DNA of 64,000 bases from a virus. Shown here piece by piece: positions 34,580-63,981 of this stretch (positions are counted from its first letter, which is position 1; each line of letters opens with the position of its first letter). Both the position numbers and the translations under genes were made by a program. Location of the stretch: the IMG/VR virus record IMGVR_UViG_3300032401_000002, positions 64,001 through 128,000 of that record; one strand, written 5' to 3'. Below the pieces are notes generated by a model that saw only the letters and a list, made by a program, of their open reading frames with translations, did no database searches and was not told where the DNA came from.

Positions 34580-35629
34580 CTAGCTGTAGAGGCCGCGATC
34601 TGCGATGTTGGTGACAACACCAGATGCTGCCCACGAGTCAGCCTTGAGGACTCGTGCGAGGCCGCGAGCGTTCAGGATCATCATCCCGACTAGCTCGTCC
34701 ATGACCCAGCCCTTGTAGAACTGCTCCACAAGGTGGTTCTCCTCAACGTCGAGGCTGTACATGACCGGGAAGACGCCGACGTACTCTGGATCAGCGGAGA
34801 GGAAGACCTCGCCCTGCGGCACGATGACCGACTTCTGAACCTGGAACTCGCCGAACGACGTGATCTTCTCGCCTGCGAATACCTTGTCCTTGAAGCTCCA
34901 ACCCGTGACGTTGATGTCCCAGGTGTAGAGGTCGCGGATGTCCTGCGGGTGAGCAAGGACACGAGATGCCTCTAGCTGCTCGATCTCAACCATCGAGACC
35001 GCGCTGTAGAAGTCAACCGGCTCAAGCGGGTTCGATGCCCCGATGATGACGGTCTTCTCGCTCGTGTGGCCACCAGGGCCAGCCGAGATTCCGGTAGCGA
35101 TACCGCCAGTCGGGGTCTGACCCGCTGCGCCGTAATCGCCGATTGCGCCTTCGAGAAGGAGGATGAGCTTGTAGTCTTCCTGCTTCTGGATGGCCTGCCG
35201 TGACTCGTCCTGCGCGTACTCGACCGCGTTCACTCGGAGGTAGTACAAGTCCTCCTTGCGGATGCGGGGGAAGGACGCGATGCGGAAGAGGTTCGGGAAC
35301 GCCTGCTTACCTTCGAAGACCTGTAGCTTGACTTCAGAATCCGTAGCGTTCAGGATGTAAGCCTTACCGAGGTCGTCTAGGATGTCATACGGCATGAGCG
35401 GGCCGCGCTCCAGGGTGTCCTCTAGGAGGACGTTGCGTACGATACCCTCGTATCGTAGGCGGATCTGGATCGGGCCGATCATTCCCTGGCCGAGGCGGTG
35501 CATACCGCTGGCCTTGTCAGCGAGGATCGTCGCGAGACGCTGCTGCTTCTCCTGCTTGGTCAGCTTCTTGAGCGAACCGAGCTTCTCGACGTAGTCGTCA
35601 CTGTGCTTTGCTGTGCGTGCTGTAAGCAT
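34580..35629 (-). CDS. Major capsid protein (HK97-like, Bxz1-like group)
   Basis: 349 aa after the protease and decoration genes. 'RLGQGMIGPIQIRLRYEGIVRNVLLED' and 'YKGWVMDELVGMMILNARGL' resemble cluster-C actinophage capsid proteins as I recall them. Confidence 0.85.
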   Translation of the reverse strand: MLTARTAKHSDDYVEKLGSLKKLTKQEKQQRLATILADKASGMHRLGQGMIGPIQIRLRYEGIVRNVLLEDTLERGPLMPYDILDDLGKAYILNATDSEVKLQVFEGKQAFPNLFRIASFPRIRKEDLYYLRVNAVEYAQDESRQAIQKQEDYKLILLLEGAIGDYGAAGQTPTGGIATGISAGPGGHTSEKTVIIGASNPLEPVDFYSAVSMVEIEQLEASRVLAHPQDIRDLYTWDINVTGWSFKDKVFAGEKITSFGEFQVQKSVIVPQGEVFLSADPEYVGVFPVMYSLDVEENHLVEQFYKGWVMDELVGMMILNARGLARVLKADSWAASGVVTNIADRGLYS

Positions 35630-35671
35630 GTCTGTTATCTCTTTCTGAGAATCTTCAGTCAGGGCCGGGGC

Positions 35672-36217
35672 CTAGACGAGAAGCTCCACGATGACGGCGT
35701 TAGCTGACAGACGAGTCACTAGACGACCTACGTTGTTGATGACGTTTGCGCCCGCAGTGCCGACGACCTGACCCTTAGCGTTGGACTTGAAGTAGACTTC
35801 GTTGGCTACCGCGCCATCCTCCGCTGCTGCCAGCGCAGAAAGACCCGTGTCATCGAAGGCCGGTGCGAGGATCTCGAAGACCCCACCCGCTCCGCGCCAA
35901 ACACCAACGCGGTCGAAGTCGGTCGGAATGTCGGAAAGCTCTCCACCAACGAAGTTGGCGAACAGCCCAAACGGACGGTTGGAAGCTGCCGCAGCGGCCG
36001 AAACAGTTACAGCCTCTCCGACGAGCTTGTTTGCGACCTGTCCGGGAAGGATGGCCGACTTTGCACCCGTGATGGCAGTACCGCCCGAAAGCGCTCCTGC
36101 TGTACGGACGAAGGCGGAACTAAGCTGCACGTCGTACGGGTACGCCTGCGTCTGTCCATACAGAGCGCGGAGCGTGCGACGGTTGTACTTGTTCGCCAGG
36201 TTGGTTAGTCGTAGCAT
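35672..36217 (-). CDS. Head decoration / minor capsid protein
   Basis: 181 aa, Ala/Gly-rich, between scaffold and major capsid ('PFGLFANF...GVWRG'). Confidence 0.7.
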   Translation of the reverse strand: MLRLTNLANKYNRRTLRALYGQTQAYPYDVQLSSAFVRTAGALSGGTAITGAKSAILPGQVANKLVGEAVTVSAAAAASNRPFGLFANFVGGELSDIPTDFDRVGVWRGAGGVFEILAPAFDDTGLSALAAAEDGAVANEVYFKSNAKGQVVGTAGANVINNVGRLVTRLSANAVIVELLV

Positions 36218-36302
36218 GGTTTCTCTTGGTTTCCTTTGGGAGTTAGCCTGTTGAGGCTTTCTACATCTTCAGCCTAGGAACTGGCTTGGAATGTAGTGGG
36301 GC

Positions 36303-38999
36303 CTAGAAGATTGAGTCCTCGAACTCGTCTTCAACTGCGTGTGCGTCGATGTCGAACGAAGCAACCGGGCGGAAGCTCGGTACTCGTCCTGCTGTCGGTG
36401 CCTTCGTGCTCGTCGCCTTGCGGAGACCAGCGGTCTTGACCTTGGCGTACGCCTCGATCTGGGCGTCAAGCGCCTGAACCGGGGTGTCCTCTAGCTCGGA
36501 CGCGCGGTCGAACTTCGCGTCAGAATCGAGGATGCCTAGCTCGACCTCAGTCTCTGCGACCTTGAGGGCCTTGTAGACCTGAGCCTTGGCGTTCGCTACT
36601 GCGACACCAATCGGGCCACCGACCTCGTTGGAGTTGTCGCCGCCAACAGGGTTAGCACCCTTGAGGCTACGGAACTCTTCACTGGAGTCGGTCTCGGTGG
36701 GGCCACCAACCTCTTCCTTCAGCGATCCGTCAAGCTGGACTCGCGTCGGGTCGTGATCGGGGAAGCCGTGGCCGGGAGAATCCCAGACGCCACTATCGTC
36801 AGCCGTCTTCTCCGTTGCGGAGACGGTGCTGAGCAACTCACCAGCATCACTCGTCACGGCATCCTGCTGACCAAGGCTATCGCCCTCGCCACCACTCCAG
36901 GTGTCCGTGTGGGGCGCGGTGAAGTCGCCCGTGTCCTTCTCTACGTTCTCGTTGTCGATGCCGCTCAGCGGATCTCCAGTGACAGCGCCCACGCCTTCTA
37001 CGTCTACACGCTTGTCAGCCTGGACACCCTCACCATTAGCAGAGGCACCGTCAGCGATCTTTGTCTGTGCGGTCATGTTGTCCTTTCGGGTTTTACTTTC
37101 GACTGGAGCCTTCGAGTCCGTGATAACCTTCTTACCAATCGGCTTGTCTGACAACTGTCGTGTAACAGGAAGGATGGGCCGTTCCTGTGTCTTAATCCGT
37201 CCACCTTGGGCGGAAGTCTTCTCAACCTTTACAGTGGCCGTCTCTGCTACCTTTGATGTGGCAGGCATAGCGCCGCCCGGCATGGGCTTGGGGCTACTCG
37301 GGTCGTTCGGGTTGGTCTGAATATCGTTGGGAGCGCCAGGCTGCTGGCCCTGTGCAGCCTGCTCAGCGTCCTGCTGATGCATCTGCTCATCGACCTCCTT
37401 GGCCTTCTCCAGGTCGGGATTGTCAAAGCCCTCGGGCGGCTCTTCGTAGTTGCAGACTTCGCAGACGCCGTCTTCCATATCGCTACCGCAGATCGGGCAA
37501 ACCTGATCCTGACGAAGTGTGTCTACCTGATCGGGAGCAACCGTCATATCTGACTGCGGCTCGGGGTTACGGTCGGCTGTTACACCACGGCCACGCAAGA
37601 TCTGCCGAATCTCATTTGCGTTCATGCCATACGAACGTGCGATGGCTTCCAAAGACTGGCCCTGTCGGTGAGCCGCCACAACGTCGTCATTCATGTTGGC
37701 CGTCTTGGCTGTTGAGCGATCCTCAAGACCAATCTGTTGTCCGGCTGCATCCCACTCTGCATCTGCTGCCTTCATAGCTGCATTGATTTCTGTCTGCTGC
37801 TCGGGGGAGAGCATGTTCCAGACGGACACGACCGAACCAGTCGAGCCTTCGCCCAGGAAGTCATTGCGATCTCCGGGGGTCTCAACGGTCGGGGTGCCAT
37901 GCTCACCATAAGGGTCATGTCGATCTCCACCCATGGGAACAGCCTGCTTGTTCCGATCAAGATGGTCAACAAGCTCCCAGAGCTTCTGGTATGTGCCAGT
38001 GCTGATTCCACTGAGAGTCTCTGCGACCTCGTCGGGTGTGTAGTAGTCAAGACCTTCGGCGGGCGGGATTGCTCCCTGTGCTCCGACGCCAGGTGCAACA
38101 CCAGCGATGTTGTAGACCGGGACTAGATCTTCCTGCTGTGCTACCTGGACTCCGTACGGGGTCTGGACGTGGTACTGAAGGATGCCACCATTGGCGGTGT
38201 AGTCCACGATCTTGCCGCTCTGGCCAGAGCCGGGGCCTCCACCGATCTGAACCTCTTCGCCAACGCGGAACTGCTGCGCGCCTTCTACCTGGACGGCAGA
38301 CACGCGAGCGGCCTTCTTGATATCGCGCACGAGCGCGGTCTCATCGGCAGGATCGAAGACAAAGCTGATCTCGAAGAAACCAATGTCGTAGCAGTCCTCA
38401 TAGGACTTCTTGGCCACCTTCTGCCCACTCGGTGTGTGGAAGTCAAAGTATGCACCCTTGGACTGGACGTGCTTGCAATATTGCTCGGGCGAGCGGGCTT
38501 CGTTACCGCAGTGTGAGCACTTGCTCAACTCTACGTTCGCACCCATGGACACGCCATCGATGTCGCCATCTACGATAGCCTTGGCGAGCTTGGGGAACTT
38601 CTTGGCATCCACTTCGAGCAGAAGCTCGATCCAGGTTGCCGGAAGGTGATTGGCGGGAGCGGCCGAGTAGTACGGGTCGAGACTTGCTGTCTTCTCGTCC
38701 TCGATGTGCAGGGCTGCGTCCACGATGACACCACGCGCCCGCTTGGGGTCGCTGTTGTGGTGGTCTACGAAGATCGGCTTGCCGATGAAGGTGCGCCAAG
38801 ACTTCTCAAGCTCAGTGGCGGGCCATCCATCGTGGTTCTTGTTGACGCGCGATGAGATCGCTCGCACGCGCACATAGACGTATCCGTCTTCAGTGCGATA
38901 GTCGTCGTACTCAGCGAACTTGGACAACGAAGCAGAGCGCTCCTTAGAGGGAGCGCTCTTGACTTCGAGGACTTCTAGCTTCGCGTACTTCTGGAACAC
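36303..38999 (-). CDS. Prohead (capsid maturation) protease fused to scaffold, with inserted SH3-like, HTH and zinc-ribbon modules
   Basis: N-terminal 'VRAISSRVNKNHDGW...TFIGKPIFVDH...GVSMG...CSHCGN...FFEISFVFDPADETA' protease domain and an acidic scaffold C-terminus. Confidence 0.85.
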   Translation of the reverse strand: MFQKYAKLEVLEVKSAPSKERSASLSKFAEYDDYRTEDGYVYVRVRAISSRVNKNHDGWPATELEKSWRTFIGKPIFVDHHNSDPKRARGVIVDAALHIEDEKTASLDPYYSAAPANHLPATWIELLLEVDAKKFPKLAKAIVDGDIDGVSMGANVELSKCSHCGNEARSPEQYCKHVQSKGAYFDFHTPSGQKVAKKSYEDCYDIGFFEISFVFDPADETALVRDIKKAARVSAVQVEGAQQFRVGEEVQIGGGPGSGQSGKIVDYTANGGILQYHVQTPYGVQVAQQEDLVPVYNIAGVAPGVGAQGAIPPAEGLDYYTPDEVAETLSGISTGTYQKLWELVDHLDRNKQAVPMGGDRHDPYGEHGTPTVETPGDRNDFLGEGSTGSVVSVWNMLSPEQQTEINAAMKAADAEWDAAGQQIGLEDRSTAKTANMNDDVVAAHRQGQSLEAIARSYGMNANEIRQILRGRGVTADRNPEPQSDMTVAPDQVDTLRQDQVCPICGSDMEDGVCEVCNYEEPPEGFDNPDLEKAKEVDEQMHQQDAEQAAQGQQPGAPNDIQTNPNDPSSPKPMPGGAMPATSKVAETATVKVEKTSAQGGRIKTQERPILPVTRQLSDKPIGKKVITDSKAPVESKTRKDNMTAQTKIADGASANGEGVQADKRVDVEGVGAVTGDPLSGIDNENVEKDTGDFTAPHTDTWSGGEGDSLGQQDAVTSDAGELLSTVSATEKTADDSGVWDSPGHGFPDHDPTRVQLDGSLKEEVGGPTETDSSEEFRSLKGANPVGGDNSNEVGGPIGVAVANAKAQVYKALKVAETEVELGILDSDAKFDRASELEDTPVQALDAQIEAYAKVKTAGLRKATSTKAPTAGRVPSFRPVASFDIDAHAVEDEFEDSIF

Positions 39000-39007
39000 T
39001 GCTGTCC

Positions 39008-39883: not shown

Positions 39884-39929
39884 GTGATTGGTCGTAACTT
39901 AGGTGTCTGCTGTTAGCCTGAACATAGGG

Positions 39930-41473: not shown

Positions 41474-41481
41474 GTCAGTCC

Positions 41482-44400
41482 TTACCAGTTGAATTGGTCG
41501 TCTGTGCCGTCAACTACGTAGTGCGTGCCGTCAAGGTCTAGGCGATCAAGGTTTCTCGCTTCGCCGCCATCTTCATCGATGAATGCCCTCTGCTCGCGTG
41601 GATCGTAGTCCTTACCGGCCAATTTCGCCATTAAACCCGGATCTACGTCCACACCACCCGTAGAAGTACCCTCCAGAAGCCATGTACGGTCTTCTGGGGC
41701 GTCTCCAGCGTATGCCCCAGTGAATGTGTCAAGTGAGACCATTTCGTCCTCAGAATCGCTTACAGCGCTGTTCTTGGAGTCGAGGTCGGAAATGTCATCC
41801 TGCTGGGGTGCTCCATCCATGCCGGGACGCGGGGGAGCTTCCTGATCCTGGAATCCATCTCCACTGTCCGTGATCTGGTCAGCGGGGGCTGCCGACGTGA
41901 ATGTGGTACCATCTGTGTCTACCTGCTGCTTCGTAAGCTCGTGTCGGTAGGAGACGCCATCACCAGAGTCCACCGTGTAGGTGATCTTGTCTGGGAGAAC
42001 TCTCTCGACTACGATCCGATCTGGGATCGCGAACGCGCCCGTCTTCATCTCGTACTCCTGACCTTCTTCGATCTGAGCGCCCTGATCATCTACCCAAGAC
42101 TGTCCCTTGTCGGGATGATGAAGCTGATGGGGCTGCTGGGCTGCACCAACGCCACCCTCCTGCACTCTCTCTTCGCCTGCGGCGTAGAATGCGAACTCAG
42201 CATCAGTGGCTCCTCGATGGGCGAACATCTCGTCGTAGCTCGGCTGTCCGCGCTCATAGGCTTCATTGATCTCGTCTGATTCTGCGTACGGATTGAAAGC
42301 CTGTGCCTGATCATCCTGACCAAAGGAGATGCCGCACTGTCGGCACTGGTTCTGACCAGGGCCTGTTTCTACACCAGGGCCACCGCAAGCCGGGCAAATC
42401 GAGCCAGGCATGTCGGTGTCGTTATGAAAGTCAGATTCTGCAATCCAGTTGCCAACCTTGGTGACAACCTTGGTGGGCTGAATCGCTGGGCCAATTGGCC
42501 CGGAAGCTGTGCCGGGGGCAACCTGATTCCCCTGCTGCGCAAGCTGCTGCTGCATGCTCGCATCAGGGCACGGGGTGCCAGCAATGTGGGACTGGCCACA
42601 CATCGGGCAAGTCGGATTCTGTCCTACAGGTACGCCTGCCGCCTGGCCTGCGCCCGGCTGCGCGAACTGCATCGGCGCGACACCAGCCATGCCAGCTTCC
42701 TTGATGCTTTCTCGCGAGGCGTCACATTCATCGCAGTGGCAATCTGACTCGTGCTCGGTAACGTCGTCATCGTCGTCATCGCTCGCTAGGTAGTCCCAGA
42801 GCGAAGCCTCCTTGGGCTTCTTCTCGTTGGCCTTCGGCTCGTCATCCGATGCTTCATCCGAGTCGTCTGAGTCATCCGACCCCTCATCCGAGATAGCCTC
42901 TTCTAGTGGCGATGTACCATCTTCCTGATCAAGACCATCCTTGTATCCGGGGAAGGCTTCTTCAAGGAGTGAATCTAGAGCTACCAAGATCGGGTTGTTA
43001 GTGCCCGGCTCGTCTGAGTCAGCAAACTCCATCACGAGCGGGAGGTTCAGGTGGAAAGCCTTCATGGCCTTGTCCTGCATCTCAGGATCGCCGTGACTGT
43101 TGATATCCTTGTCGGGGCCGTCAGGCGACTTGCCACCGCCTGTACCGTCAACATCCTTCAACTGCTCGGGGCCGTCACCCTGCTCCTTCTTGCCGCCGAT
43201 GCCGCTGTCTGAAGCCTCATCTGTGGAGTTGGTACCGTCGTTCTTGGTTGCCCAACCATCTTCTTCTTCGCCGAAAGTGTCGGCCGTCTTGGAGACGAGT
43301 CCGATCTGCGAGGTATCGGTAGGATCTAGCGGGGCTGCACCGGGTGCGCCACCGCCTCCACCTTGACCACCAGGGGATACAATGTTCCTACCTACACCCT
43401 GGACAGCACCCTGACCTAGCGCGCGGGTCATCATTCCACCTACGCCCGCCATGCCGCCAGCTTCTGCACCGGCTGCCGCTGCGCCGCCGCCAATGCCCAA
43501 CGCCTCACCGACACCCATCAGGGCAGGGATAGCGAGAGGGGCTGCTGTGACTTGCTGTGTGTGACCGCACGTATGACATACAGACGTGGATGCCTGCCTA
43601 ATCATCGGGGAGTAACACTCGGGACAACTATCGAGGGGCGCTGCGTTGGCCTTGTGCCAAGCTAGCTCTTCATCGATGTGTGCGAAATACTCGGGCTTCA
43701 AGTTGATGTGTCCTCCACGTTGATGTTGGTACTGCATGATCTGATTCCAGGCATCGCGCTTCTGCCCTGGAGACCAATCCGCTGTAGCACCAGGCATCAC
43801 AGTGATAGTATGGGAGTTCGGTTCAATCTTTAGGTAGTTGCCTGTCTCGACTTTGTTGTACTCGCCCTTGATGTCGAGGATCACAGGAATGCCCTCGGTG
43901 GTCGCCAGAACGGCCGCATGTGAGGTCATACCACCCGTTGCGGTGATGATTGCGCGCACACCTTTCTGCCATAGCATGAAGTCTTCAGGCTGAAGATGTT
44001 CGGCCACCAAGATAGCGTTCGGGGTGATCTCACCGTTCGAGCGTTCCTTGACCCAGGCGACTCCGGTGATGACTTCACCTTGCTGTTGGGGAGAGATGAT
44101 CCACGTTCCTCCATGAATCTCGACGGGCTGGAATACCTGGCCCTTGCCCTGCGAGGGCGCTCCACCAATCGGGCCATGAAGAGTGATGTTGGCACCAAAG
44201 GCTTGTTCGATCTGCTGCTGCGCTGACTCTTGGTTGAACTGTGTTCCGGGGAACACCCTCTGCACGTCGGCCGTGCCATCGTTGTAGACTGACCCAAGAG
44301 CGGCACAATCTTGCGGGTACCGAAGTCCGTTGCGCTCCGCTAGCTTCTCATGCACTGCATGAACACCATGCTCAAAGTGCATCTGACCTTGCTTGTCGAT

Positions 44401-44970
44401 AATCCACTTACCGATCTCGACCTTCATGTTCGCATCGCCTGAGAACATAGCGTCCCAGTCTTCTGCGGTGACCGTGCGGCTCGCAATCTTCTGGGCCATC
44501 TTCCAGGTCGCCAAGTTCATGGACGGATACGAGTCATCTGTCTTCATGCGGTTGCGCTTCGGCTCGCGCTCGGGCATGCCGTCTAGGTGATGCTCCTGCG
44601 GTGCCGGGTCGTTGTAGACGAACTCGTCGTCTTTCTTGTTCCACTCAGGAGTCAGGTCTTTGCCGCATGTGGGGCATGCCCGCAAATCCGTGCTTTCTTG
44701 GCACAATGGGCAGTTGACAACTGTATTGCCCGTGAATCCGTGCATTGCAGCCATGTGCCCTTCAAGCTCGGGAACGCCAGCTAGCTCGGAGTGTTCTAGC
44801 TGATTCTGGTTGAACAAGTCGTTGTCACCACCAGTCGAGTGACCACGGTCAGGCCCAAGCCCGTTGTCGGGAGCTTTGATGTAGGTCTTCGACTCGGGTT
44901 CCCAGATCCAGACTGTGCCGGGATCTGTAGGATCGCTGAAGCTAGGCATGGGTAGATCGGGCATGGTCAC
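41482..44970 (-). CDS. Large acidic multidomain head-region protein containing a PEP-utiliser mobile (phospho-His) domain and zinc ribbons
   Basis: 'ILVAEHLQP...AIITATGGMTSHAAVLA...GIPVI', several CxxC pairs, and C-terminal 'EQRAFIDE...ARNLDRLDLDGTHY'. Confidence 0.75.
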   Translation of the reverse strand: MTMPDLPMPSFSDPTDPGTVWIWEPESKTYIKAPDNGLGPDRGHSTGGDNDLFNQNQLEHSELAGVPELEGHMAAMHGFTGNTVVNCPLCQESTDLRACPTCGKDLTPEWNKKDDEFVYNDPAPQEHHLDGMPEREPKRNRMKTDDSYPSMNLATWKMAQKIASRTVTAEDWDAMFSGDANMKVEIGKWIIDKQGQMHFEHGVHAVHEKLAERNGLRYPQDCAALGSVYNDGTADVQRVFPGTQFNQESAQQQIEQAFGANITLHGPIGGAPSQGKGQVFQPVEIHGGTWIISPQQQGEVITGVAWVKERSNGEITPNAILVAEHLQPEDFMLWQKGVRAIITATGGMTSHAAVLATTEGIPVILDIKGEYNKVETGNYLKIEPNSHTITVMPGATADWSPGQKRDAWNQIMQYQHQRGGHINLKPEYFAHIDEELAWHKANAAPLDSCPECYSPMIRQASTSVCHTCGHTQQVTAAPLAIPALMGVGEALGIGGGAAAAGAEAGGMAGVGGMMTRALGQGAVQGVGRNIVSPGGQGGGGGAPGAAPLDPTDTSQIGLVSKTADTFGEEEDGWATKNDGTNSTDEASDSGIGGKKEQGDGPEQLKDVDGTGGGKSPDGPDKDINSHGDPEMQDKAMKAFHLNLPLVMEFADSDEPGTNNPILVALDSLLEEAFPGYKDGLDQEDGTSPLEEAISDEGSDDSDDSDEASDDEPKANEKKPKEASLWDYLASDDDDDDVTEHESDCHCDECDASRESIKEAGMAGVAPMQFAQPGAGQAAGVPVGQNPTCPMCGQSHIAGTPCPDASMQQQLAQQGNQVAPGTASGPIGPAIQPTKVVTKVGNWIAESDFHNDTDMPGSICPACGGPGVETGPGQNQCRQCGISFGQDDQAQAFNPYAESDEINEAYERGQPSYDEMFAHRGATDAEFAFYAAGEERVQEGGVGAAQQPHQLHHPDKGQSWVDDQGAQIEEGQEYEMKTGAFAIPDRIVVERVLPDKITYTVDSGDGVSYRHELTKQQVDTDGTTFTSAAPADQITDSGDGFQDQEAPPRPGMDGAPQQDDISDLDSKNSAVSDSEDEMVSLDTFTGAYAGDAPEDRTWLLEGTSTGGVDVDPGLMAKLAGKDYDPREQRAFIDEDGGEARNLDRLDLDGTHYVVDGTDDQFNW

Positions 44971-47995: not shown

Positions 47996-49816
47996 CTAGC
48001 TGGAGAGTGACGCCCATTCCGATACCTCTTCCCAGTCTTCGTTTGAATGCTTGCGCCACCAATCCTTGATTGCTTCTTCCGCGTGTTCGCGAACTTCAGG
48101 CTCGGATAGCTGGGTGTGCTTGATCTTGATCTCGGAACCACTCGTGCGTAGCTCGCCCGTGTCGGTCTTTGTGGTGTCAATGTCCATCATCGCGTTGCCC
48201 GTGTCCACGCCGAACTTGTCGAGTAGCTCCTGGAGTATGTCTGTCACCTTGAGATTATGATCCCATTCCTTGATCACAAGTTCGCTCATGTAGTAGACGA
48301 ACAAGTAATCAGGATCGCTGTCTTCGTCTGCTGCCGCCTTCAGGTTCTGGGACGGTACGCGCTGTGTCTTACCGGACTGGTAGTCCTTGACAAGCATGTG
48401 CTCGCCATCAGCCCCCAACACGATTCCAAGTCCGCCACCAGGCGTTGTGACTTGCGTCCCCTTGGCGAAGAGCGGAGCGCCAGTCTCAGTGATCGTCTCT
48501 GTGCCGGTAGGCTCGGACAATGCGTGACCGCATGTTCCTGCCATGCACTTCTGCATGCGGCGGGCTGTCTGCTGGTGAGCCAACTCGATGTTGGCCTTGC
48601 CGTGGTCGCCGTAGCCTGTTACGATGTGGTTGTAGCCGTCAGTGTCCGTCCACTGATAGACGGGCTTGCCGTTTCCGCTGTACCGATTGAAGCCCCATCC
48701 AAGCTCTTGGGCCAGTCCGTTCTCTCCGACTGCTCCGACCACAACGCGCGAGACGGGCTTGAGCGTGCGCTCGGGATCTTCGCCACATGAGGGACACTCG
48801 ATGCGACCCTTGTGCTCGGCCTCGCGCTGGTACGTCACACCGCAGTGGTGACATCGCTTGATCGTGTGCTTGTGCTTGCCCTTCTTATCAACGATCTTCA
48901 ACTCATGCACGTCCTCCTTGAAGGTGAACTTGCCCTCGTCATCTCTCTTGTGCTCGTCTTCCTCGAACGCGGTCTTGGAGATAGCAGGCCCGAAGACATC
49001 ATCGATGTCAGACCAATCATCGCCGCCAATCGCTTGGTCGGGGAGGTTAGCATTCTCGACGGCCAGAGCTTGTGACTGCGGGTCGGGAGTCTTGAAGGGG
49101 TTGAGATGACTGAAGTCATACGTACCTACCGTGATCATCTGCTTGTTGCCGATCCATGTGTCCGTTAGCCCCTCACGGAAGAAGACATACGCCTTGTCGG
49201 TGAAGAAGTTGAGGCGGACTCCGATCAGGGCGGGCTTCAGTCCATTCGCCATGCAGTAAGCGATCTTGGCCGCACGCTCGTCCTTGCCACCGATCTTGAA
49301 TCGCTCCTGGGCTTGCGAGTGGTTCGTCTTGATCTCGACCCCGAAGTTGCCGCGCTCGCTGCGAATGATGGCGTCAATCGGGAAGGTGTTCTGATTCGAA
49401 GCTGGCTCAACTGCACCAATACCTGGAAGCTCTCCGAGACCCAGGACAACCTGCTCGCCGATGTCCCCCATCTGCGAAAGCGTTAGACCAGATCGCGTAC
49501 GCCCACCAGGATTCAGCACGGGCTTGCCGCTGCCGTCCGGGTCTTGAATGTGACTCTTGGAATCGTCCAGGTAGTTGTCCGTGTAGCCGCAATGAGGACA
49601 AGTGAACTCGCCACCGTTCTGCTCGATCTCCTGCATTTCACTTTGTGCAAAGTGATAACCGCACTTGGGGTTAGTGCAGTGAGCAGACGGATCTACATGA
49701 TGCTGTTCGTTCGGGCCTGTCAGTTCAGCTACCGCGTCATCGACGTACTTGGGTCGTGCGACGGGCATAGCAACGGCCTGCCAGTTTCCGATCTTCTCCC
49801 AGTCAAAGACAGTCAT
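47996..49816 (-). CDS. Multidomain protein: zinc ribbons + PD-(D/E)xK nuclease-like domain + further small domains
   Basis: 'GDIGEQVV...PIDAII...GVEIKT' nuclease motif, CxxC pairs, and an 'EHKRDDEGKF' motif. Confidence 0.7.
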   Translation of the reverse strand: MTVFDWEKIGNWQAVAMPVARPKYVDDAVAELTGPNEQHHVDPSAHCTNPKCGYHFAQSEMQEIEQNGGEFTCPHCGYTDNYLDDSKSHIQDPDGSGKPVLNPGGRTRSGLTLSQMGDIGEQVVLGLGELPGIGAVEPASNQNTFPIDAIIRSERGNFGVEIKTNHSQAQERFKIGGKDERAAKIAYCMANGLKPALIGVRLNFFTDKAYVFFREGLTDTWIGNKQMITVGTYDFSHLNPFKTPDPQSQALAVENANLPDQAIGGDDWSDIDDVFGPAISKTAFEEDEHKRDDEGKFTFKEDVHELKIVDKKGKHKHTIKRCHHCGVTYQREAEHKGRIECPSCGEDPERTLKPVSRVVVGAVGENGLAQELGWGFNRYSGNGKPVYQWTDTDGYNHIVTGYGDHGKANIELAHQQTARRMQKCMAGTCGHALSEPTGTETITETGAPLFAKGTQVTTPGGGLGIVLGADGEHMLVKDYQSGKTQRVPSQNLKAAADEDSDPDYLFVYYMSELVIKEWDHNLKVTDILQELLDKFGVDTGNAMMDIDTTKTDTGELRTSGSEIKIKHTQLSEPEVREHAEEAIKDWWRKHSNEDWEEVSEWASLSS

Positions 49817-54549: not shown

Positions 54550-56547
54550 TCAACGACCTGTTAAGCCCGTATAATGGCCACCTTGCGGATACGATTGATA
54601 CAATCCGGGGGTGCGAAGCTCTTGCATTCCAGTCAGATGAACTGGCTTGCCTAGGTGTTCTTGTGCCGCATGAATGACATCATGGACGCCAACCTGATTG
54701 CCCCACTGGTTGCCGTACAAGCCATAGCCACCACCGTCGATAGTAGGGACTGCCCACCCTGACATAGTGTGTAGCTCCTCATCTCCTTGCTGGTGACGCT
54801 TCTTGAACTCTTCCTCCAAGTGGGGGTGGCCCAGTCCGTGCCACCCCTTGCCCCGCCATCTCAGGTTCTCCTCGGGTTCGGACATGAACTCCTTGCCATC
54901 CGACACGAATCGGTGCGCCCCCTTCCAGCCACTCCAGGTCTGAGGGCCATAAGGCATAGGAGCACCGTCCTTCCAGATAGCACTCCAGTCACCCTTGTTC
55001 TCGAAGTCAGCCGATCCCCAGTCGTCTCTGTTCTCAAGGGTGCCACTCCAGTCATGGAAGTCGCGCTGGTCTGAAGTCTTACTGAGTGTTCCAGTGAAGC
55101 GGTGATCTGTGCCCTCGTTCCCGCGAGCAAAGCGAAGGTACTTGAACTCTACGGGGATCTTCGAGTCCAGCTTCGGAAGTTCGTCATCCCAGTCGTAGGC
55201 CAGTGTGATGTGAGGCGTCCAGCCATACTCGTCCGACACGTTGAAGCCAGCCTCGTTGCAGGCAGTCGTTAACTCGTGACGTAGCTCAGCCAACTGCGGG
55301 ATCGCAGGAGCAGCCCATAGCACTGGCTCTTCGTTGCTGAAGACGCCATAGCCGCCGATCTCGCCGCTCAGGGCAGGGAACTTCTTGGCGAACTGGGCTA
55401 CGATCTCCTCGACCTCGTCCCAGTCATCACGGTCGGCAGCCTTGTCCGTGAAGTAGCACAGCGTGATGTGCATCATGTCTACCGGCTCGCCACCCTCGAT
55501 CTTGATCTTCTCCCCGACCTTCTTGGGTAGGAAGACCGCGATCATGGCCCCTGACATATCAGCATCGGCCTTCTTGCGCAAAGGACGTAGGAGCCGCTTT
55601 AAGGCTCTGAACTTACTATCCGGGGTGTCTATGCCAACAAGCCCTACGTGCTCCTTAGGAGCCGCTACAGAGGCGTACAGACCCCCTCTAGCAGTGTTTC
55701 CCAGGTGATCTTGCGCCCATGCGGCGCTGGCGGCATGATCTACAAGCGTTGAGGGGTCTGTGCTGAACTCGACTCCGAGATTCTCGTGGTCTTCCTGAAC
55801 GGTCGGAAGGTAGATCTGAGAGTCAGGATAGAGCTTGGCAACTTCGGCCTTGACCTCCTGGATGACCTTGATCGGTGTATCGATACGTGATACTTCGATC
55901 TCGACGGCATCGCCCTCGGGGATCGCGTACCCAAGGTAGTCCTTGCCTCTTACGGTCACGCGGCCCCAGGTGTCCGAGGCTGCTTCGTCATGAGTCGGAC
56001 GCTGATCTTCGCCAGTCTGCCACAAGAGCAACCCCTCGGGATCGCCATAAATCCACTTTACGATCTTGCCCTCCCCTGCGTGTGGGTCGGGCGCGAAGGC
56101 GTCATCCCATTCGAACGCCAGCTTGGGCTGCTTGAAGGAAGCGATCTTAGCCTTCCGCGCCACGCTTCCGGGGAAGTTGTCTTCGAACCAGTCGAACACA
56201 CCTTGGGGGATCTCGGCCTTGTAGTACGCCTGGATGAGTACCACGGGAGGAGCTACCATCGTACCGTCGAGCTTCTTCTCGGCGGGGATGAACTGAGCCA
56301 GCCCTAGAATGTCTCCCGATTGCGCGGAAGGTTCTCGACCCATCTGGATCTCTAGCTGTCCACGATGGCTGCCAGGCTGATCTTCCATCGTCAGCCTACC
56401 ATCTACGCCGCCCTTGACCCTCCAGACGTGAGTCTGGTTGGTCTGAGCATCAAACCCCCACTTGAAGTTGTACGGCCAAGCAGGGTCGAACTCCTCGGGT
56501 GATCCGATGGTGTTGTCTACTTGGGGTATGGGCTTCCAGTCATCCAT
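54550..56547 (-). CDS. Multidomain protein with 2H phosphoesterase (2'-5' RNA ligase/Acb1-like) domain
   Basis: Two HxT motifs, 'MHITLCY' and 'TPHITLAY', about 86 aa apart. Confidence 0.8.
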   Translation of the reverse strand: MDDWKPIPQVDNTIGSPEEFDPAWPYNFKWGFDAQTNQTHVWRVKGGVDGRLTMEDQPGSHRGQLEIQMGREPSAQSGDILGLAQFIPAEKKLDGTMVAPPVVLIQAYYKAEIPQGVFDWFEDNFPGSVARKAKIASFKQPKLAFEWDDAFAPDPHAGEGKIVKWIYGDPEGLLLWQTGEDQRPTHDEAASDTWGRVTVRGKDYLGYAIPEGDAVEIEVSRIDTPIKVIQEVKAEVAKLYPDSQIYLPTVQEDHENLGVEFSTDPSTLVDHAASAAWAQDHLGNTARGGLYASVAAPKEHVGLVGIDTPDSKFRALKRLLRPLRKKADADMSGAMIAVFLPKKVGEKIKIEGGEPVDMMHITLCYFTDKAADRDDWDEVEEIVAQFAKKFPALSGEIGGYGVFSNEEPVLWAAPAIPQLAELRHELTTACNEAGFNVSDEYGWTPHITLAYDWDDELPKLDSKIPVEFKYLRFARGNEGTDHRFTGTLSKTSDQRDFHDWSGTLENRDDWGSADFENKGDWSAIWKDGAPMPYGPQTWSGWKGAHRFVSDGKEFMSEPEENLRWRGKGWHGLGHPHLEEEFKKRHQQGDEELHTMSGWAVPTIDGGGYGLYGNQWGNQVGVHDVIHAAQEHLGKPVHLTGMQELRTPGLYQSYPQGGHYTGLTGR

Positions 56548-61559: not shown

Positions 61560-63046
61560 TACTGCCCCTTACCTTCGAGAGTGACTGTCCATACGCTTGG
61601 GCCTATACCCACGCTCGTCCAGTTGAGACGAACTAGCTCTCCAGAGGTTACGGTGCCGAGGCTCGTCGTTATGACGTGCTCGGCTACCCCTGCGGCTAGC
61701 GTCATGGTTGATACAGTGGTGGGCGTGAATGCGCCACCACCTGGTGACTTCTGTAGCTGAATTGTCGTAGCTGGGCTACCCGTGACGGCCACATTCTCGA
61801 CTCGGAGCACGAGTCTCTGGAGGTTGTACGTCTTAGATACACCGTTCTCGTACGGGATACGCCAAACTCCACCGGCAGGCCCTAGACCCGCAGGCACTGC
61901 ATCGCCCTGCCACAGCACGGACAAGTTGGTCTTCGGGACGATGTTGGCAACCAGCACCCAGACTCCACCCGACTTGTTGTATACGTCGCCGTTGGATGTG
62001 TCGAGGTAGTTGTCGCCCTCTAGCCCAAGACTGTTCGACGGGACGCCACTTCCGGTGAACCACTTGGTGCCTCGGGGTGGTGCCAAAGGTGTGTGAATGT
62101 GTGATACATGAGTACCACCAGAGTGAACGAAGTGGATTGTCTTGTTCGAGTTCGAGTCGGTAACCGCATACACCTTCACTACGATGCGATCAGTGGTGGC
62201 TACAGGTGTCCCCACAGTCGTGACGTACCCTAGATCAGACTGAAGCGTGACCGTTGTATCGTTGATGTCGCCAGAGTAGATGCTGAAGATCTCTGTCTCG
62301 GTGCCGCCAACCGTTCTCGTGTAGACACGGAAGCGAAGCTGGGAAATCTGAGCCGCATTCGATACGTATCTGTAGAAGCTAAACTCCCACAGTCCAGGCG
62401 GGATCTGGTTTCCCGTGTTGAGATCATCAGACGTGATGTACGAGTCGAGAAGGACTTCTCCACTTGCGTTCGTTATGGTTACCTGATCATCATCTTCGGC
62501 CACCTGGGTGGGCGTTGTGGACAGGGTCACGTAAGCAGGAACCGCAACGTCGGCTGTGTCCTGGAAGAACAACAATCTGCCTGTGGTCGAACCCGTTGCT
62601 CCAGTGGCACCAGTCGGGCCTTTGATGTTCGCCACCAAAGTGTATGCCCCCAACACGCGCTCGTACACGTCACCAGTTACAGAATCTAGGTAGTAGTCTC
62701 CGTCTACGCCCAGTCCGTTCGAGGGCGTACCCGACCCCGTACGCCAGACCGTGCCGTCCATACCGATGATACCGTCAGCGCCCGGTGGCCCCTTGATGTT
62801 GGCCGTCAGAACATAGACCCCGCCAGTCTTCTCGTACACGTCGCCGTTGGTCTCGTTAAGGTAGAAGTCACCGTTGACTCCGAGACCATTCGACGGCACA
62901 CCGGGGCCTGAGCGCCATGCTGATCCGCCCCCGCCTCCCCCACCGACACCAAGGTCTTCGAGGGCTTCCTGGATGCCGTCGATCATCGTGCCGACGTAGG
63001 GGATTCCCGTCCATGGGTTGGGGACTGAGATGTAGGGTAATGCCAT
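61559..63046 (-). CDS. Fibre protein with three W..G.G.PSN.LG..GD.YL repeats and short collagen segments
   Basis: 495 aa with repeats plus GPPGADG and GPTGATG. Confidence 0.7.
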   Translation of the reverse strand: MALPYISVPNPWTGIPYVGTMIDGIQEALEDLGVGGGGGGGSAWRSGPGVPSNGLGVNGDFYLNETNGDVYEKTGGVYVLTANIKGPPGADGIIGMDGTVWRTGSGTPSNGLGVDGDYYLDSVTGDVYERVLGAYTLVANIKGPTGATGATGSTTGRLLFFQDTADVAVPAYVTLSTTPTQVAEDDDQVTITNASGEVLLDSYITSDDLNTGNQIPPGLWEFSFYRYVSNAAQISQLRFRVYTRTVGGTETEIFSIYSGDINDTTVTLQSDLGYVTTVGTPVATTDRIVVKVYAVTDSNSNKTIHFVHSGGTHVSHIHTPLAPPRGTKWFTGSGVPSNSLGLEGDNYLDTSNGDVYNKSGGVWVLVANIVPKTNLSVLWQGDAVPAGLGPAGGVWRIPYENGVSKTYNLQRLVLRVENVAVTGSPATTIQLQKSPGGGAFTPTTVSTMTLAAGVAEHVITTSLGTVTSGELVRLNWTSVGIGPSVWTVTLEGKGQ

Positions 63047-63048
63047 AG

Positions 63049-63981
63049 TTATGAACGCTCGTTGAGTGAAGTCATAAACTCGTCATAAGTCTGGACTTGA
63101 CCGGCGAAGTGAGGCTCCCAATAGGATGTCTTGCTGATCTTCGCGCCCTTGTTCCAGCCCCTCACCTTGTTCTTGAGCCAGGGGTTGTTCCAGTGGTAGG
63201 CATCGATGGGCTTGCCGCTCGCGCGCAAGGGAGCAACCATCTGGTTGAACAACCCTTGCTCTCTGTGGTCGGGGTGTACGTACACTGTCCCCAACATGTT
63301 CCACCCGTTGGGGTCTTCCACGTACGTCATCGAACCAACTGGCTTGTCGCCATGGAGGGCAACAACGCCCTGACCCTGTCGTCCCTGTCGGTCGAGGAAG
63401 GTATCCTCAAGCTCGCCAGTTTGCTCCATCTTGTTGGTCTCGACATTCTTCTTCCAACCTGCTCGGAATCTGGGGTGCTCTTTGCCGTCTTCATCGATCC
63501 AGGTGTTGTTCTCCAGATCGATGGGCACGATCCGATAAGGGCTAGCAGCTTGCTTGATAAAGGCTTGTTCGCACGCGGCCTTGATAGCCGGGATGTCAAG
63601 ATCAGGCCGTCGCGTGTTCAACTCGATCCCACCTTCTGTGTACCTGCGGCCCTTGATCATTCCCCGCTTGATCCACTCGTCCTCGCCCAACCCCTCTTTC
63701 TCGTGCATGTCGCTGATGATGTCGAAGTGATTGGGGCCGAACCTGAACTGTTGCATCATGGGGTCGTAGACGAAGGCCGTTGACTCTTTGGGCCGAGGTA
63801 CCCAGTCGTAGTCATCGTCCATGGTGGCTACCTTGCTGAGCGCACCCGGAATCTTAACCTCGGCCTGCTCGGGTGGGCCACTCGTCAAGTCTTCGTAGGT
63901 GGGTAGACCACGGTTCTCCTGGTTGGGGTCTGGGAGATCCTGAGGCAATGCCAGTCCGTTCGTGTAGACTAGGTTGTACAA
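63049..63981 (-). CDS. Multidomain protein with C-terminal GNAT acetyltransferase domain
   Basis: 'VVALHGDKPVGSM...LGTVYVHPDHREQGLFNQMV' matches GNAT motif A (V.P..R..G). Confidence 0.7.
   Translation of the reverse strand: MYNLVYTNGLALPQDLPDPNQENRGLPTYEDLTSGPPEQAEVKIPGALSKVATMDDDYDWVPRPKESTAFVYDPMMQQFRFGPNHFDIISDMHEKEGLGEDEWIKRGMIKGRRYTEGGIELNTRRPDLDIPAIKAACEQAFIKQAASPYRIVPIDLENNTWIDEDGKEHPRFRAGWKKNVETNKMEQTGELEDTFLDRQGRQGQGVVALHGDKPVGSMTYVEDPNGWNMLGTVYVHPDHREQGLFNQMVAPLRASGKPIDAYHWNNPWLKNKVRGWNKGAKISKTSYWEPHFAGQVQTYDEFMTSLNERS

What the first reader, a model, noticed from the sequence alone, without database searches (positions are those of the whole stretch)
34580..63981. Candidate capsid-packaged 'polyprotein arsenal': enzyme domains separated by recurring K/R-x-A/S protease-like sites
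Seen in sequence: six large head-region ORFs (310, 665, 858, 606, 1162 and 898 aa) are mosaics of unrelated small domains joined by low-complexity linkers. The junctions repeatedly carry K/R-x-A/S: LSKVA, IKQAA, ISKTS (63049 gene); KIAS, PKLA, RKKA, LSKTS (54550); RRMASLKIAA, TKRAA (49816); ISKTA, LKAAA (47996); QKIASRTVTA, VSKTA, PKEAS, IKEAG, AKLAG (41482); KKAARVSA, TAKTA, SKVA, EKTSA, TKIA, EKTA (protease/scaffold); and TARTA at the capsid N-terminus. The GNAT domain lies between KQAA and SKTS, and the 2H domain between RKKA and SKTS. Established: prohead proteases of large phages (T4 gp21, phiKZ gp175) cut internal head proteins at a short motif. Inference: this phage packages and cleaves polyproteins into injected effectors (2H phosphodiesterase, acetyltransferase, phospho-His carrier, glycosylase-like, nuclease) that act before any phage gene is expressed, a modular counter-defence/host-takeover system.
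Basis: partly seen in the sequence, partly recalled or inferred. Interest (0 to 1): 0.9.

Follow-up and report, generated by a model that had tools for sequence, protein, structure and literature searches.

The report
Phage multi-enzyme proteins with junction motif
An uncultured relative of the large mycobacteriophages encodes giant proteins built from swappable enzyme modules, and a short basic-x-small-small motif marks the module joints, the capsid protein and the capsid protease, so it may be a cutting signal; the general idea of such injected "polyvalent" proteins was published in 2017.

Summary
The ORFs and the main domains are real: GNAT, 2H phosphoesterase, PEP-utilizer phospho-His domain, prohead protease and capsid protein. 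The "310-aa" ORF is the tail of a 990-aa ORF cut by the window edge.

The loose K/R-x-A/S motif carries little information: 92 observed against 70 expected here, and 1.06x in 97 related giant proteins. A sharper form, [KR]-[T/x]-[AS]-[AGS], is real.
- It is enriched only in the mosaic giants, 17 against 5.8 expected, and not in the rest of the proteome.
- It sits at homology breakpoints, 28 against 12; permuted motifs and tail proteins show no enrichment.
- It sits at AlphaFold domain edges of the 2H protein, P about 0.001.
- It is conserved in orthologues and brackets modules that have moved between proteins.
- It occurs directly after the protease domain, twice in the scaffold tail, and in cultured cluster C mycobacteriophages (12 against 1.1).

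The interpretation matches the published "polyvalent protein" concept (Iyer et al. 2017), so it is not new in kind. A recognisable junction code shared with capsid-maturation substrates does appear to be new. Cleavage, packaging and injection remain inferred. An embedded H[DE]xxGH module in p858, possibly a zincin-like peptidase, is a rival protease.

The parts
63049..64000 (-). C-terminal part of p990. The full ORF is genome 127049-130021 = L106:49-3021:-. Contains a PcfJ-like domain (aa 315-371, outside the window) and a GNAT domain (aa 875-930).
   Evidence: GNAT module homologous to G003 giant aa 595-712
63544..63561 (-). Junction motif FIKQAA directly before the GNAT module of p990.
   Evidence: the same module in G003 is preceded by TRQAS
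63124..63141 (-). Junction motif KISKTS directly after the GNAT module of p990.
   Evidence: G003 has SRMAS at the same place
54550..56547 (-). p665. AF2 domains are 19-133, 160-248, a 2H phosphoesterase at 330-488 (both HxT motifs kept), and 540-654.
56137..56157 (-). p665 site RKAKIAS at the end of domain 1. R131 and A133 are nearly invariant in 14 homologues.
55567..55578 (-). p665 site RKKA, 2-3 residues before the 2H domain.
55072..55089 (-). p665 site TLSKTS at the end of the 2H domain. K490 is nearly invariant. Homologues P0014 and P0015 carry an extra module inserted here, bracketed by K-T-x-[AS].
49816..52392 (-). p858. An N-terminal ~80-aa domain, the connector RRMASLKIAA-W, then a widespread hub module (aa 85-270) with conserved H[DE]xxGH, GE and E..GQ. 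The hub is a candidate zincin-like peptidase.
52153..52182 (-). p858 connector motif RRMASLKIAA. The equivalent connector [KR]-x-A-[AG]-W is seen in more than 100 homologues.
47996..49816 (-). p606. Zinc ribbons, a probable PD-(D/E)xK nuclease-like module (aa ~100-260), and junction motifs ISKTA (48968-48982) and KAAA (48329-48340).
41482..44970 (-). p1162. Several CPxCG zinc ribbons, a PEP-utilizer mobile (phospho-His) domain at aa 316-380, Gly-rich and acidic linkers, and a conserved C-terminal ~40-aa module shared with cluster C gp96. Motifs: KIAS (44479-44490), VSKTA (43282-43296), AKLAG (41614-41628).
36303..38999 (-). p898. HK97/assemblin-like prohead protease (aa ~30-225; H80 and S151 invariant), a variable middle region, and a conserved helical scaffold-like C-terminus ending DSxF.
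38295..38318 (-). p898 site KKAARVSA, 6-12 aa after the protease domain. A [KR]-x-[AS]-[AS] occurs at this place in nearly every orthologue, and as KTAG in Guwapp gp97.
37698..37709 (-). p898 site (ST)AKTA. An [ST]-x-[KR]-T-A-D site recurs in the variable region after the protease domain in about 15-20 relatives. The MAFFT alignment does not put these sites in one column.
36426..36437 (-). p898 site KTAG within KVKTAGL of the scaffold tail. It is conserved in most relatives and in Guwapp gp97.
35672..36217 (-). Cement / minor capsid protein (Phage_cement_3).
   Evidence: Myrna gp98 homologue (PMC7150772)
34580..35629 (-). Major capsid protein. It is 55% identical to the cluster C MCP and related to phage G gp27 (PDB 6wkk).
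35609..35623 (-). MCP N-terminal motif TARTA. The pattern [ST]-[AS]-R-x-A..S-x-D-Y is conserved in relatives.
35486..35497 (-). MCP R45-L46-G47-Q48. It aligns with the phage G maturation cut (27 aa removed), so it is the predicted capsid maturation site.

Best explanation
The window comes from a 150-kb uncultured myovirus of the Bxz1/Myrna/phage G lineage. Its large ORFs are polyvalent proteins, i.e. strings of independent modules:
- p990: PcfJ-like plus GNAT.
- p665: 2H phosphoesterase plus three small beta-rich domains.
- p606: zinc ribbons and a probable PD-(D/E)xK nuclease.
- p1162: zinc ribbons and a phospho-His swivel domain.
- p858: the H[DE]xxGH hub module.
The modules are joined by disordered linkers.

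Shown here:
- The modules are shuffled between giant proteins in related phages.
- The joints carry a short motif, [KR]-x-[AS]-[AS/G], most often K/R-T-A-A/G.
- Selection on the motif is at the protein level.
- The motif also lies right after the prohead-protease domain, twice in the scaffold tail of the same protein, at the start of the conserved C-terminal module of p1162/gp96, and at the capsid protein N-terminus.

Inferred:
- The motif is the recognition site of the assemblin-like prohead protease (N-terminal 230 aa of p898). By analogy with herpesvirus assemblin (A|S) and with the phage G capsid cut (...LA|Q), cleavage would follow the small residue.
- The giants are therefore co-assembled into the prohead and cut into single domains there.
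- The folded domains stay in the head and enter the cell with the DNA. There the 2H enzyme (cyclic or 2'-5' nucleotide or RNA-end phosphodiesterase), the acetyltransferase and the others would act before phage genes are expressed.
For: Lineage:
- MCP, cement protein and protease match cluster C phages and phage G.

Mosaicism:
- The GNAT module sits in p990 here, in the p1162 orthologue of G001 and in a 2581-aa giant of G003.
- PcfJ, p606 and p858 segments are recombined in the giants of G002 and G003.

Motif counts:
- 17 against 5.8 expected in the giants; 45 against 43 in the rest of the proteome.
- 28 against 12 within about 15 aa of internal homology breakpoints. Permuted motifs give 1.0-1.3x. 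Tail and other proteins give 8 against 6.5.
- The junction result is repeated in 3 of 4 informative genomes.
- 67 against 17 in 97 independent giants, with permuted controls at 0.8x.
- 12 against 1.1 in the three Guwapp giants, and none in its portal, MCP or cement protein.

Structure:
- The p665 AF2 domain edges at 133/134, 329/330 and 488/489 coincide with conserved motif sites.
- 5 of 8 [KR]x[AS] fall within 6 aa of an edge, P=0.0009.

Module insertion and flanks:
- Extra modules inserted in P0014 and P0015 are bracketed by K-T-x-[AS].
- The GNAT flanks are IKQAA/ISKTS here, TRQAS/SRMAS in G003 and ...AVKA/LSRTA in G001.
- P0018 has R/K-T-A-A/G at every joint.

Level of selection:
- Codons at the motif vary.

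Link to the protease:
- A motif lies 6-18 aa after the protease domain in nearly all orthologues.
- Two motifs lie in the scaffold tail.
- The MCP N-terminal motif is conserved.
- The phage G MCP loses 27 residues (PMC5646251), and that cut aligns with R-L-G|Q here.

Capsid location of the cargo type:
- 2H domains are fused to a portal protein and to an XkdF protease in other phages.

Published framework:
- PMC5512222.
Against: - No proteomic, N-terminal or expression data exist for this phage or for its cluster C relatives' giants. The Myrna capsid paper reports none.
- The motif is short, and its sharp form was defined after looking at the data. Junction counts include homologous junctions counted more than once.
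- The phage G cut (R-V-A-L-A|Q) fits the motif only loosely.
- The giants are scattered among tail-fibre genes.
- A CCA-adding-enzyme fusion with no obvious reason to be in the capsid has the same motif at its joints.
- No shared capsid-targeting sequence was found among the giants.
- p665 keeps one conserved architecture in 14 homologues, which would also fit a protein that works uncut.
- p858 carries a widespread H[DE]xxGH module that may be a peptidase itself.
Confidence: 0.5

Rival explanations
1. The giants are polyvalent proteins, but they are processed by an embedded peptidase, not by the prohead protease. The H[DE]xxGH hub module of p858 (aa 85-270) would be a zincin-like metallopeptidase of the HEXXXH type predicted by Iyer et al. 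It would cut at the [KR]-x-A-A|W/F-type joints, in cis at its own N-terminal connector and in trans elsewhere. This could happen before packaging or after injection.
For: - The module is a hub: 2428 cluster representatives, found at N-terminal, internal and C-terminal positions, as solo ~160-aa proteins, and in two copies in the G002 giant.
- Invariant H..H, GE and E..Q residues lie on helices that follow two strands.
- One homologue reads HEVLGH.
- A [KR]-x-A-[AG]-W connector lies directly upstream in more than 100 homologues.
- The weak structural matches are dominated by minimal zincins and relatives: abylysin, jannalysin, selecase, YbeY, ArdC, CapP, PprI, PPEP-2.
- Several joints are followed by an aromatic residue, as thermolysin-like enzymes prefer.
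- The published prediction is that MPTases process polyvalent proteins.
Against: - Asp replaces the catalytic Glu in most members.
- This does not explain motifs at the capsid protein N-terminus, right after the prohead protease and in the scaffold tail, which are canonical prohead-protease substrates.
- p990, p665, p606 and p1162 lack the module.
Confidence: 0.2
2. The motif is real but is not a cleavage site. It would be a conserved linker or capping element, or a docking peptide (for example for the scaffold, the capsid interior or a chaperone), and the giants would act as intact multidomain proteins.
For: - p665 architecture is conserved as a whole in 14 homologues.
- N4 vRNAP-type polyvalent proteins are packaged uncut (PMC5512222).
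- The motif is often followed by an acidic/aromatic stretch that begins the next domain, so it could be a structural cap.
- A CCA-enzyme fusion has it too.
Against: - The motif lies in low-pLDDT linkers next to domain edges rather than inside domains.
- It occurs at the extreme N-terminus of the capsid protein and immediately after the protease domain, where self-cleavage is the rule in related systems (SPN3US gp245, PMC10052503).
- The motif persists while the modules on either side change.
Confidence: 0.2
3. The pattern is a compositional or chance artefact of Ala/Ser/Lys-rich linkers, picked out by eye.
For: - The loose [KR]x[AS] is at 1.06x in 97 related giants.
- [AS][AS] alone is 1.4x enriched at junctions.
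- An unbiased window-similarity scan did not beat shuffles.
Against: - Order-permuted motifs of identical composition are not enriched: 0.76-0.82x against 3.9x, and 1.0-1.3x against 2.3x at junctions.
- The site is conserved by position across orthologues at 35-60% identity.
- The result is replicated in cluster C phages.
Confidence: 0.05

Closest known systems
Polyvalent proteins of phages and conjugative elements (Iyer, Burroughs, Anand, de Souza, Aravind 2017, J Bacteriol, PMC5512222)
   Same: - Giant phage proteins combine unrelated catalytic domains and are encoded among late or virion genes.
- The repertoire includes RimI-like GNATs, 2H phosphoesterases (also fused to portal or MuF), peptidases (a zincin hub, and assemblin-like), zinc ribbons and lysins.
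- They are predicted to be packaged, processed and injected.
- The paper even notes a solo GNAT among the late genes of cluster C phage Alice.
   Different: - That work predicts processing mainly by embedded zincin MPTases and, in the sections read here, defines no cleavage motif. A prior description cannot be excluded.
- Here a short junction motif is defined and shown to be enriched.
- The motif is shared with the capsid protein and the protease-scaffold protein.
- The assemblin-like protease is N-terminal in its fusion, whereas it is 'always C-terminal' in their set.
- The PEP-utilizer swivel domain and the name PcfJ were not found in that text by the searches run here.
Prohead-protease processing of internal head / ejection proteins in T4 (gp21, L/I-x-E), phiKZ (gp175) and SPN3US (gp245, A-x-E)
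   Same: - An assemblin-fold protease inside the prohead cuts many head proteins at a three-residue motif.
- Cuts include multiple sites per protein and self-cleavage.
- Some products stay in the head and are ejected (PMC10052503).
   Different: - The motif here has a basic P3-like residue and a small, not acidic, residue before the presumed cut.
- In those phages mainly N-terminal propeptides are removed. Here the sites lie between successive folded enzyme modules, as in a polyprotein.
- No experimental evidence exists here.
MuF / portal-fused polymorphic effector domains and T4 Alt (capsid-delivered enzymes)
   Same: Enzymes are delivered from the capsid with the DNA. The closest 2H relatives include a portal-2H fusion and an XkdF-protease-2H fusion.
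   Different: Those are single effector domains anchored to a virion protein. Here several modules are chained, and no MuF or portal anchor was found in the giants.
Herpesvirus assemblin (cleaves (V/L/I)-x-A|S)
   Same: Same protease fold family as HK97-type prohead proteases (established knowledge). The preferred [KR]-x-A-[AS] joint resembles the A|S scissile pair.
   Different: The P3/P4 preference differs. The scissile bond here is unknown.

Membership tests
Polyvalent proteins (Iyer et al. 2017) | Two or more domains of disparate biochemical activity in one polypeptide | tested here: met
   p990 has PcfJ plus GNAT. The G001 orthologue of p1162 has PEP-utilizer mobile domain, GNAT and zinc ribbons. 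P0018 has GNAT plus 2H. For p665 only one catalytic domain (2H) was identified.
Polyvalent proteins (Iyer et al. 2017) | Encoded by a phage or plasmid among late / virion genes | tested here: met
   All lie on the late strand between MCP, protease, cement, fibre, collar and lysin genes.
Polyvalent proteins (Iyer et al. 2017) | The same domains are fused to virion anchors (portal, MuF, prohead protease) in other phages | tested here: met
   P0020 is Phage_portal_3 plus 2H. P0019 is 2H plus Peptidase_S78_2. phrog_18402 'head maturation protease' contains the 2H region.
Polyvalent proteins (Iyer et al. 2017) | Delivered into the host cell with the DNA | not testable with these tools
   Needs virion proteomics and infection assays.
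HK97/assemblin-like prohead serine protease (p898 N-domain) | Profile or sequence match to known prohead proteases | tested here: met
   phrog_18299 head maturation protease 5e-21. phrog_2774 5e-66. tblastn to Rhodococcus phage E3 gp77 'prohead protease' 2e-39 and to jumbo-phage proteases.
HK97/assemblin-like prohead serine protease (p898 N-domain) | Conserved His and Ser catalytic residues | tested here: inconclusive
   H80 and S151 (in G-x-S-M-G) are invariant in 13 orthologues. Their assignment as catalytic is by analogy. There was no Pfam Peptidase_S78 hit at E<0.01 and no solved relative by sequence.
HK97/assemblin-like prohead serine protease (p898 N-domain) | Gene immediately upstream of the scaffold / MCP genes | tested here: met
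   Order is p898, cement, MCP, as in cluster C phages.
T4 gp21 / phiKZ gp175-type processed internal head proteins | Cleavage motif ending in Glu (L/I-x-E, A/S/G-x-E) | tested here: not met
   The recurrent motif ends in Ala, Ser or Gly and has a basic first residue.
T4 gp21 / phiKZ gp175-type processed internal head proteins | Presence in virions as cleaved forms | not testable with these tools
   No proteomic data were found for this lineage.
2H phosphoesterase (LigT/CPDase-like), p665 aa 330-488 | Two H-x-T/S motifs, family profile above cut-off, and the 2H fold | tested here: met
   HITL occurs twice (H360/T362 and H446/T448, invariant). PF13563 scores 51 bits against a cut-off of 27. Foldseek 5h7e CPDase E=5e-8, LigT, viral 2',5'-PDEs, Acb1.
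Zincin-like MPTase, HEXXXH clade (p858 aa 85-270) | H-E-x-x-x-H on a helix after a small beta sheet, plus a downstream Glu ligand | tested here: inconclusive
GNAT acetyltransferase (p990 C-terminal module) | Pfam GNAT profile above the gathering score | tested here: met
   PF00583 scores 23.7-24.9 bits against a cut-off of 20.7. This is marginal. The acetyl-CoA motif was not examined.

The most novel reading that the evidence does not exclude
A short junction code ([KR]-T/x-A/S-A/G/S) lets the capsid-maturation protease of the Bxz1/Myrna/phage G lineage cut interchangeable enzyme cassettes out of giant polyvalent proteins inside the prohead. If so, it would define the processing logic for polyvalent proteins, which the sections of the 2017 paper read here leave as a prediction without a motif. 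It would also explain how cassettes (2H, GNAT, nuclease, phospho-His domain) can be swapped between carriers without loss of processing. The CCA-enzyme fusion would then be a capsid-delivered tRNA-repair enzyme too.
Probability: 0.35. Interest if true: 0.8.

Novelty: new variant of a known kind. Interest (0 to 1): 0.6.

Why it matters
Polyvalent proteins are thought to be a widespread first-strike toolkit of phages and plasmids. How they are loaded and cut into working parts has only been guessed at.

If the junction motif is a cleavage site, it becomes possible to predict the mature products of hundreds of giant phage proteins. It would also give a direct test in easily grown mycobacteriophages (Bxz1, Myrna and more than 200 cluster C isolates), because their three head-module giants carry the same motif. 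It would further suggest which enzymes enter the cell before any phage gene is expressed: a 2H phosphodiesterase of the Acb1/LigT kind, an acetyltransferase, a nuclease and a phospho-His domain.

If the motif is not a cleavage site, it is still a conserved linear signal of unknown use in a very large protein family.

Tried and rejected
- Megablast of 24 kb against GenBank phages found no match.
- An unbiased BLOSUM window-similarity scan for repeated peptides was dominated by acidic low-complexity runs and CPxCG zinc ribbons. After masking it was no better than shuffles, so it has no power for 4-5-residue motifs.
- I looked for covariation between the middle residue of the MCP N-terminal motif (RTA, RQA, RKA) and the sites in the same phage's protease-scaffold. 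Some phages suggested it, but K/R-T-A sites occur regardless, so I dropped it.
- DNA-level recombination signal at the joints: rejected, because codons differ between instances.
- Idea that p858 is the portal (similar size and position): rejected. The portal is at genome 23482-25830.
- The portal N-terminal K-M-A-S site is only weakly conserved, so it was not used.
- Complex prediction of the protease domain with the p665 linker (aa 474-513) returned 'no answer' (score 0.01). This is neither for nor against.
- Foldseek and VIA searches of the p858 hub model gave no significant match.
- Literature searches for virion proteomics of Bxz1, Myrna or E3 giants and for the BCSR5 phosphodiesterase found nothing usable.
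- Two context look-ups of hub-module giants showed the same cement-MCP lineage. They therefore could not separate the prohead protease from an embedded peptidase.
- No common N- or C-terminal targeting peptide among the giants was seen by eye.

Full report
**What the window is.** The window is bases 64001-128000 of a 150,167-bp IMG/VR viral contig, estimated 93% complete.
- The capsid protein (34580-35629, minus strand) is 53-56% identical to the MCPs of cluster C mycobacteriophages (Myrna, Phabba, Bxz1-like). It also matches phage G gp27, PDB 6wkk.
- The cement protein and the N-terminal protease domain of the 898-aa ORF have the same relatives.
- No nucleotide-level relative exists in GenBank phages.
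- More than 80 related loci exist in IMG/VR, with MCP identity of 62-90%.
- Gene order around the capsid gene (giant ORF, protease fusion, cement, MCP) is the same as in Phabba and Guwapp.

**Check of the observation.**
- The "310-aa" ORF is cut by the window edge. In the contig it is a 990-aa ORF.
- Confirmed domains:
  - GNAT (p990 aa 875-930) and a PcfJ-like domain (p990 aa 315-371; also twice in a 1973-aa ORF downstream).
  - 2H/LigT (p665 aa 328-484).
  - PEP-utilizer mobile domain with the TSH phospho-His motif (p1162 aa 316-380).
  - Prohead protease (p898 aa ~26-235), major head protein and cement protein.
- The 2H fold was confirmed on an AlphaFold model: Foldseek CPDase 5h7e E=5e-8, LigT, viral 2',5'-phosphodiesterases and phage Acb1.
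- "Nuclease" in p606 is a lead only: a PD...ExK motif visible, and an Atlas feature score of 0.91 to PDDEXK_14 clusters.
- Nothing glycosylase-like was found.
- The region is not a clean head module. It contains a collar fibre gene, a tail-fibre-like gene, a CHAP lysin, a PAS protein and a paralogous fibre family. The portal is 75 kb away.

**Is the motif more than chance?** As written (K/R-x-A/S), hardly.
- It is expected about 70 times in the six ORFs and found 92 times, P=0.006.
- In 97 independent related giants it is at 1.06 times expectation.

A sharper form stands out.
- [LIV]-S-K-[TV]-[AS]: 5 against 0.04 expected. This pattern was defined post hoc.
- [KR][TVIQLM][AS][AGS]: 17 against 5.8 in seven giants (P=1e-4); 45 against 43 in the other ~150 proteins.
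- [KR]-T-[AS]-[AGS] in 97 giants (105,598 residues) drawn from a 1.8-billion-protein library: 67 against 17 expected. Three order-permuted versions give 13-14.
- In cultured cluster C phages the three giants flanking the head genes carry 12 (Guwapp) and 7 (Phabba) copies against about 1 expected. Portal, MCP, cement and decoration proteins carry none.
- Codons at the motif differ between instances, so selection acts on the peptide and not on a DNA joint.

**Where the motif sits.** Three independent definitions of "module boundary" agree.

1. Homology breakpoints. I compared proteins of at least 250 aa from five genomes all against all.
   - In the mosaic family, [KR]x[AS][AS] lies within about 15 aa of internal HSP ends 28 times against 12 expected (p<0.001).
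   - Reversed or scrambled motifs give 1.0-1.3x.
   - Tail and other proteins give 8 against 6.5.
   - The excess is seen separately in this genome, G002 and G004.
   - Caveat: homologous junctions are counted more than once.
2. Predicted structure. The AF2 model of p665 has confident domains at 19-133, 160-248, 330-488 and 540-654, separated by linkers with pLDDT below 50.
   - Five of its eight [KR]x[AS] lie within 6 residues of a domain edge, P=0.0009.
   - The three edge sites (R131-x-A133, K-x-A before the 2H domain, K490-x-small after it) are conserved in 14 homologues of 34-59% identity, while the linkers next to them vary.
3. Module mobility.
   - The GNAT module is bracketed by FIKQAA / KISKTS in p990, by TRQAS / SRMAS in a 2581-aa giant of G003, and by ...AVKA / LSRTA in the p1162 orthologue of G001.
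   - Two p665 homologues have an extra module inserted after the 2H domain, with K-T-x-[AS] on both sides.
   - A GNAT-2H fusion (P0018) has R/K-T-A-A/G at each of its joints.

**Link to capsid maturation.**
- A [KR]-x-[AS]-[AS] lies 6-18 residues after the protease domain in almost every orthologue of p898: KKAARVSA here, KTAG in Guwapp gp97.
- The helical scaffold-like C-terminus carries two more conserved sites, R/K-V-K-T-A-G-L and a second R-T-A-G/S before R-x-P-S.
- An [ST]-x-[KR]-T-A-D site recurs in the variable region after the protease domain in about 15-20 relatives. The alignment does not place these sites in one column.
- The only part of p1162 conserved as far as cluster C gp96 is a C-terminal ~40-aa module. 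It begins with AKLAG here, LSKTAG in G002 and RTAG in cluster C.
- The MCP N-terminus carries a conserved [ST]-[AS]-R-x-A...S-x-D-Y.
- The phage G MCP loses 27 residues on maturation (282 to 255 residues, N-terminal sequencing; PMC5646251). With the sequence this puts the cut at ...R-V-A-L-A|Q, which aligns with R45-L46-G47|Q48 here and R-L-G|Q in cluster C.
- Capsid and scaffold proteins are the canonical substrates of HK97/assemblin-type prohead proteases (established knowledge; SPN3US example in PMC10052503). The simplest reading is therefore that the junction motif is that protease's recognition site, with a small residue before the cut as in herpesvirus assemblin (A|S).
- This step is inference. 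The scissile bond is unknown, and the phage G site fits only loosely.

**Known framework.** The overall idea is the "polyvalent protein" model (PMC5512222).
- It describes phage and plasmid proteins with 2-15 unrelated domains, encoded among late genes, and predicted to be packaged, processed and injected.
- The paper lists GNATs, noting a solo GNAT among the late genes of cluster C phage Alice, 2H domains fused to portal or MuF, assemblin-like peptidases, and a zincin metallopeptidase hub proposed as the processing enzyme.
- Consistent with this, the closest relatives of the 2H domain here include a portal-2H fusion and a 2H-XkdF protease fusion.
- In the sections read, that work gives no cleavage motif and no link between junctions and capsid-maturation sites. 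I searched the text by term only, so a prior description cannot be excluded.

**The main rival.** p858 aa 85-270 is a very widespread module.
- It has 2428 cluster representatives, at any position in proteins of 140-2500 aa, with two copies in one G002 giant.
- It has invariant H..GH (H[DE]xxGH), G-E and E..GQ and a confident alpha/beta model with pLDDT 91.6.
- This resembles the "HEXXXH" metallopeptidase clade of the 2017 paper.
- The fold searches gave only weak hits, although these were enriched in minimal zincins, ArdC, CapP and PprI.
- In more than 100 homologues a [KR]-x-A-[AG]-W connector lies just upstream of the module.
- This module could be the enzyme that cuts the joints.
- Two context look-ups showed that such giants come from the same cement-MCP lineage, so co-occurrence cannot separate the two candidate proteases.

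**Other cautions.**
- A 1065-aa CCA-adding-enzyme fusion far from the head genes has K-Q-A-S and K-L-A-S exactly at its homology breakpoints. Either processing is not confined to capsid cargo, or this enzyme is cargo too.
- No common targeting peptide was found.
- No proteomic evidence exists for the lineage.

**Verdict.**
- Observation: partly confirmed. The motif is real in a sharper form, junction-specific and conserved.
- Interpretation: partly supported, and not new in concept.

| Statement | My odds |
|---|---|
| The motif is a functional signal | about 0.85 |
| It is a proteolytic site | about 0.6 |
| The prohead protease is the enzyme and the products are capsid-delivered | about 0.35-0.5 |

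The claim can be tested directly in cultured cluster C mycobacteriophages.

Noticed in passing
L014, L063, L030 (orthologues of window 36303-38999): Inteins (Hint / intein-splicing domains) are inserted in the prohead protease gene of several relatives. In L014 and L063 the insertion follows the invariant G-x-S-M-G serine motif directly. In L030 it lies further downstream (aa 420-835).
   Followed up: partly
G002 giant, L099:3217-8916:-: A 1899-aa polyvalent protein carries an intein with a LAGLIDADG domain between its modules, and two copies of the p858 hub module.
   Followed up: no
genome 14194-17391 (outside the window, 46.6 kb before it): A CCA-adding enzyme fusion (1065 aa) shares N-terminal modules with the giants. 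It has K-Q-A-S and K-L-A-S at its homology breakpoints. Relatives G003 and G004 have similar fusions, one with a YunG domain.
   Followed up: partly
window 51583-52140 (p858 aa 85-270): A hub domain with invariant H[DE]xxGH, GE and E..GQ has 2428 cluster representatives. There is no Pfam family and no significant fold match. It also occurs as ~160-aa solo proteins.
   Followed up: partly
window 41482-44970, 47996-49816, 36303-38999: CPxCG zinc ribbons recur: at least four in p1162, two in p606 and one in p898. They are the strongest repeated peptide in an unbiased scan, and their role is unknown.
   Followed up: no
window 57393-61559: Three to four paralogous fibre or baseplate-like genes begin M-T/P-V-R-V-Y-K/R-S-T-D and end W-D-T-S-S/A. 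They lie next to a collagen-like fibre gene (61559-63046).
   Followed up: no
window 53793-54458: A 221-aa protein with an N-terminal hydrophobic helix and a PAS domain lies in the late region.
   Followed up: no
window 39008-39883: A 291-aa protein has an extremely acidic Ser/Asp and Pro/Gly-rich middle, directly upstream of the protease-scaffold gene. No family was found. It may be a scaffold or internal protein.
   Followed up: no
L107:241-6162:- (genome 144241-150162): A 1973-aa giant runs to within 5 bases of the contig end. It has two PcfJ-like domains, a GNAT-like N-terminus by eye, and one WVSKTAKH site that resembles the MCP N-terminus (TARTAKH).
   Followed up: partly
L123:11410-17166:+ (G004): A 1918-aa giant has a sub-threshold match to the anti-CBASS Acb1 family (E=2.9e-4, 21 bits against a cut-off of 27).
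   Followed up: no
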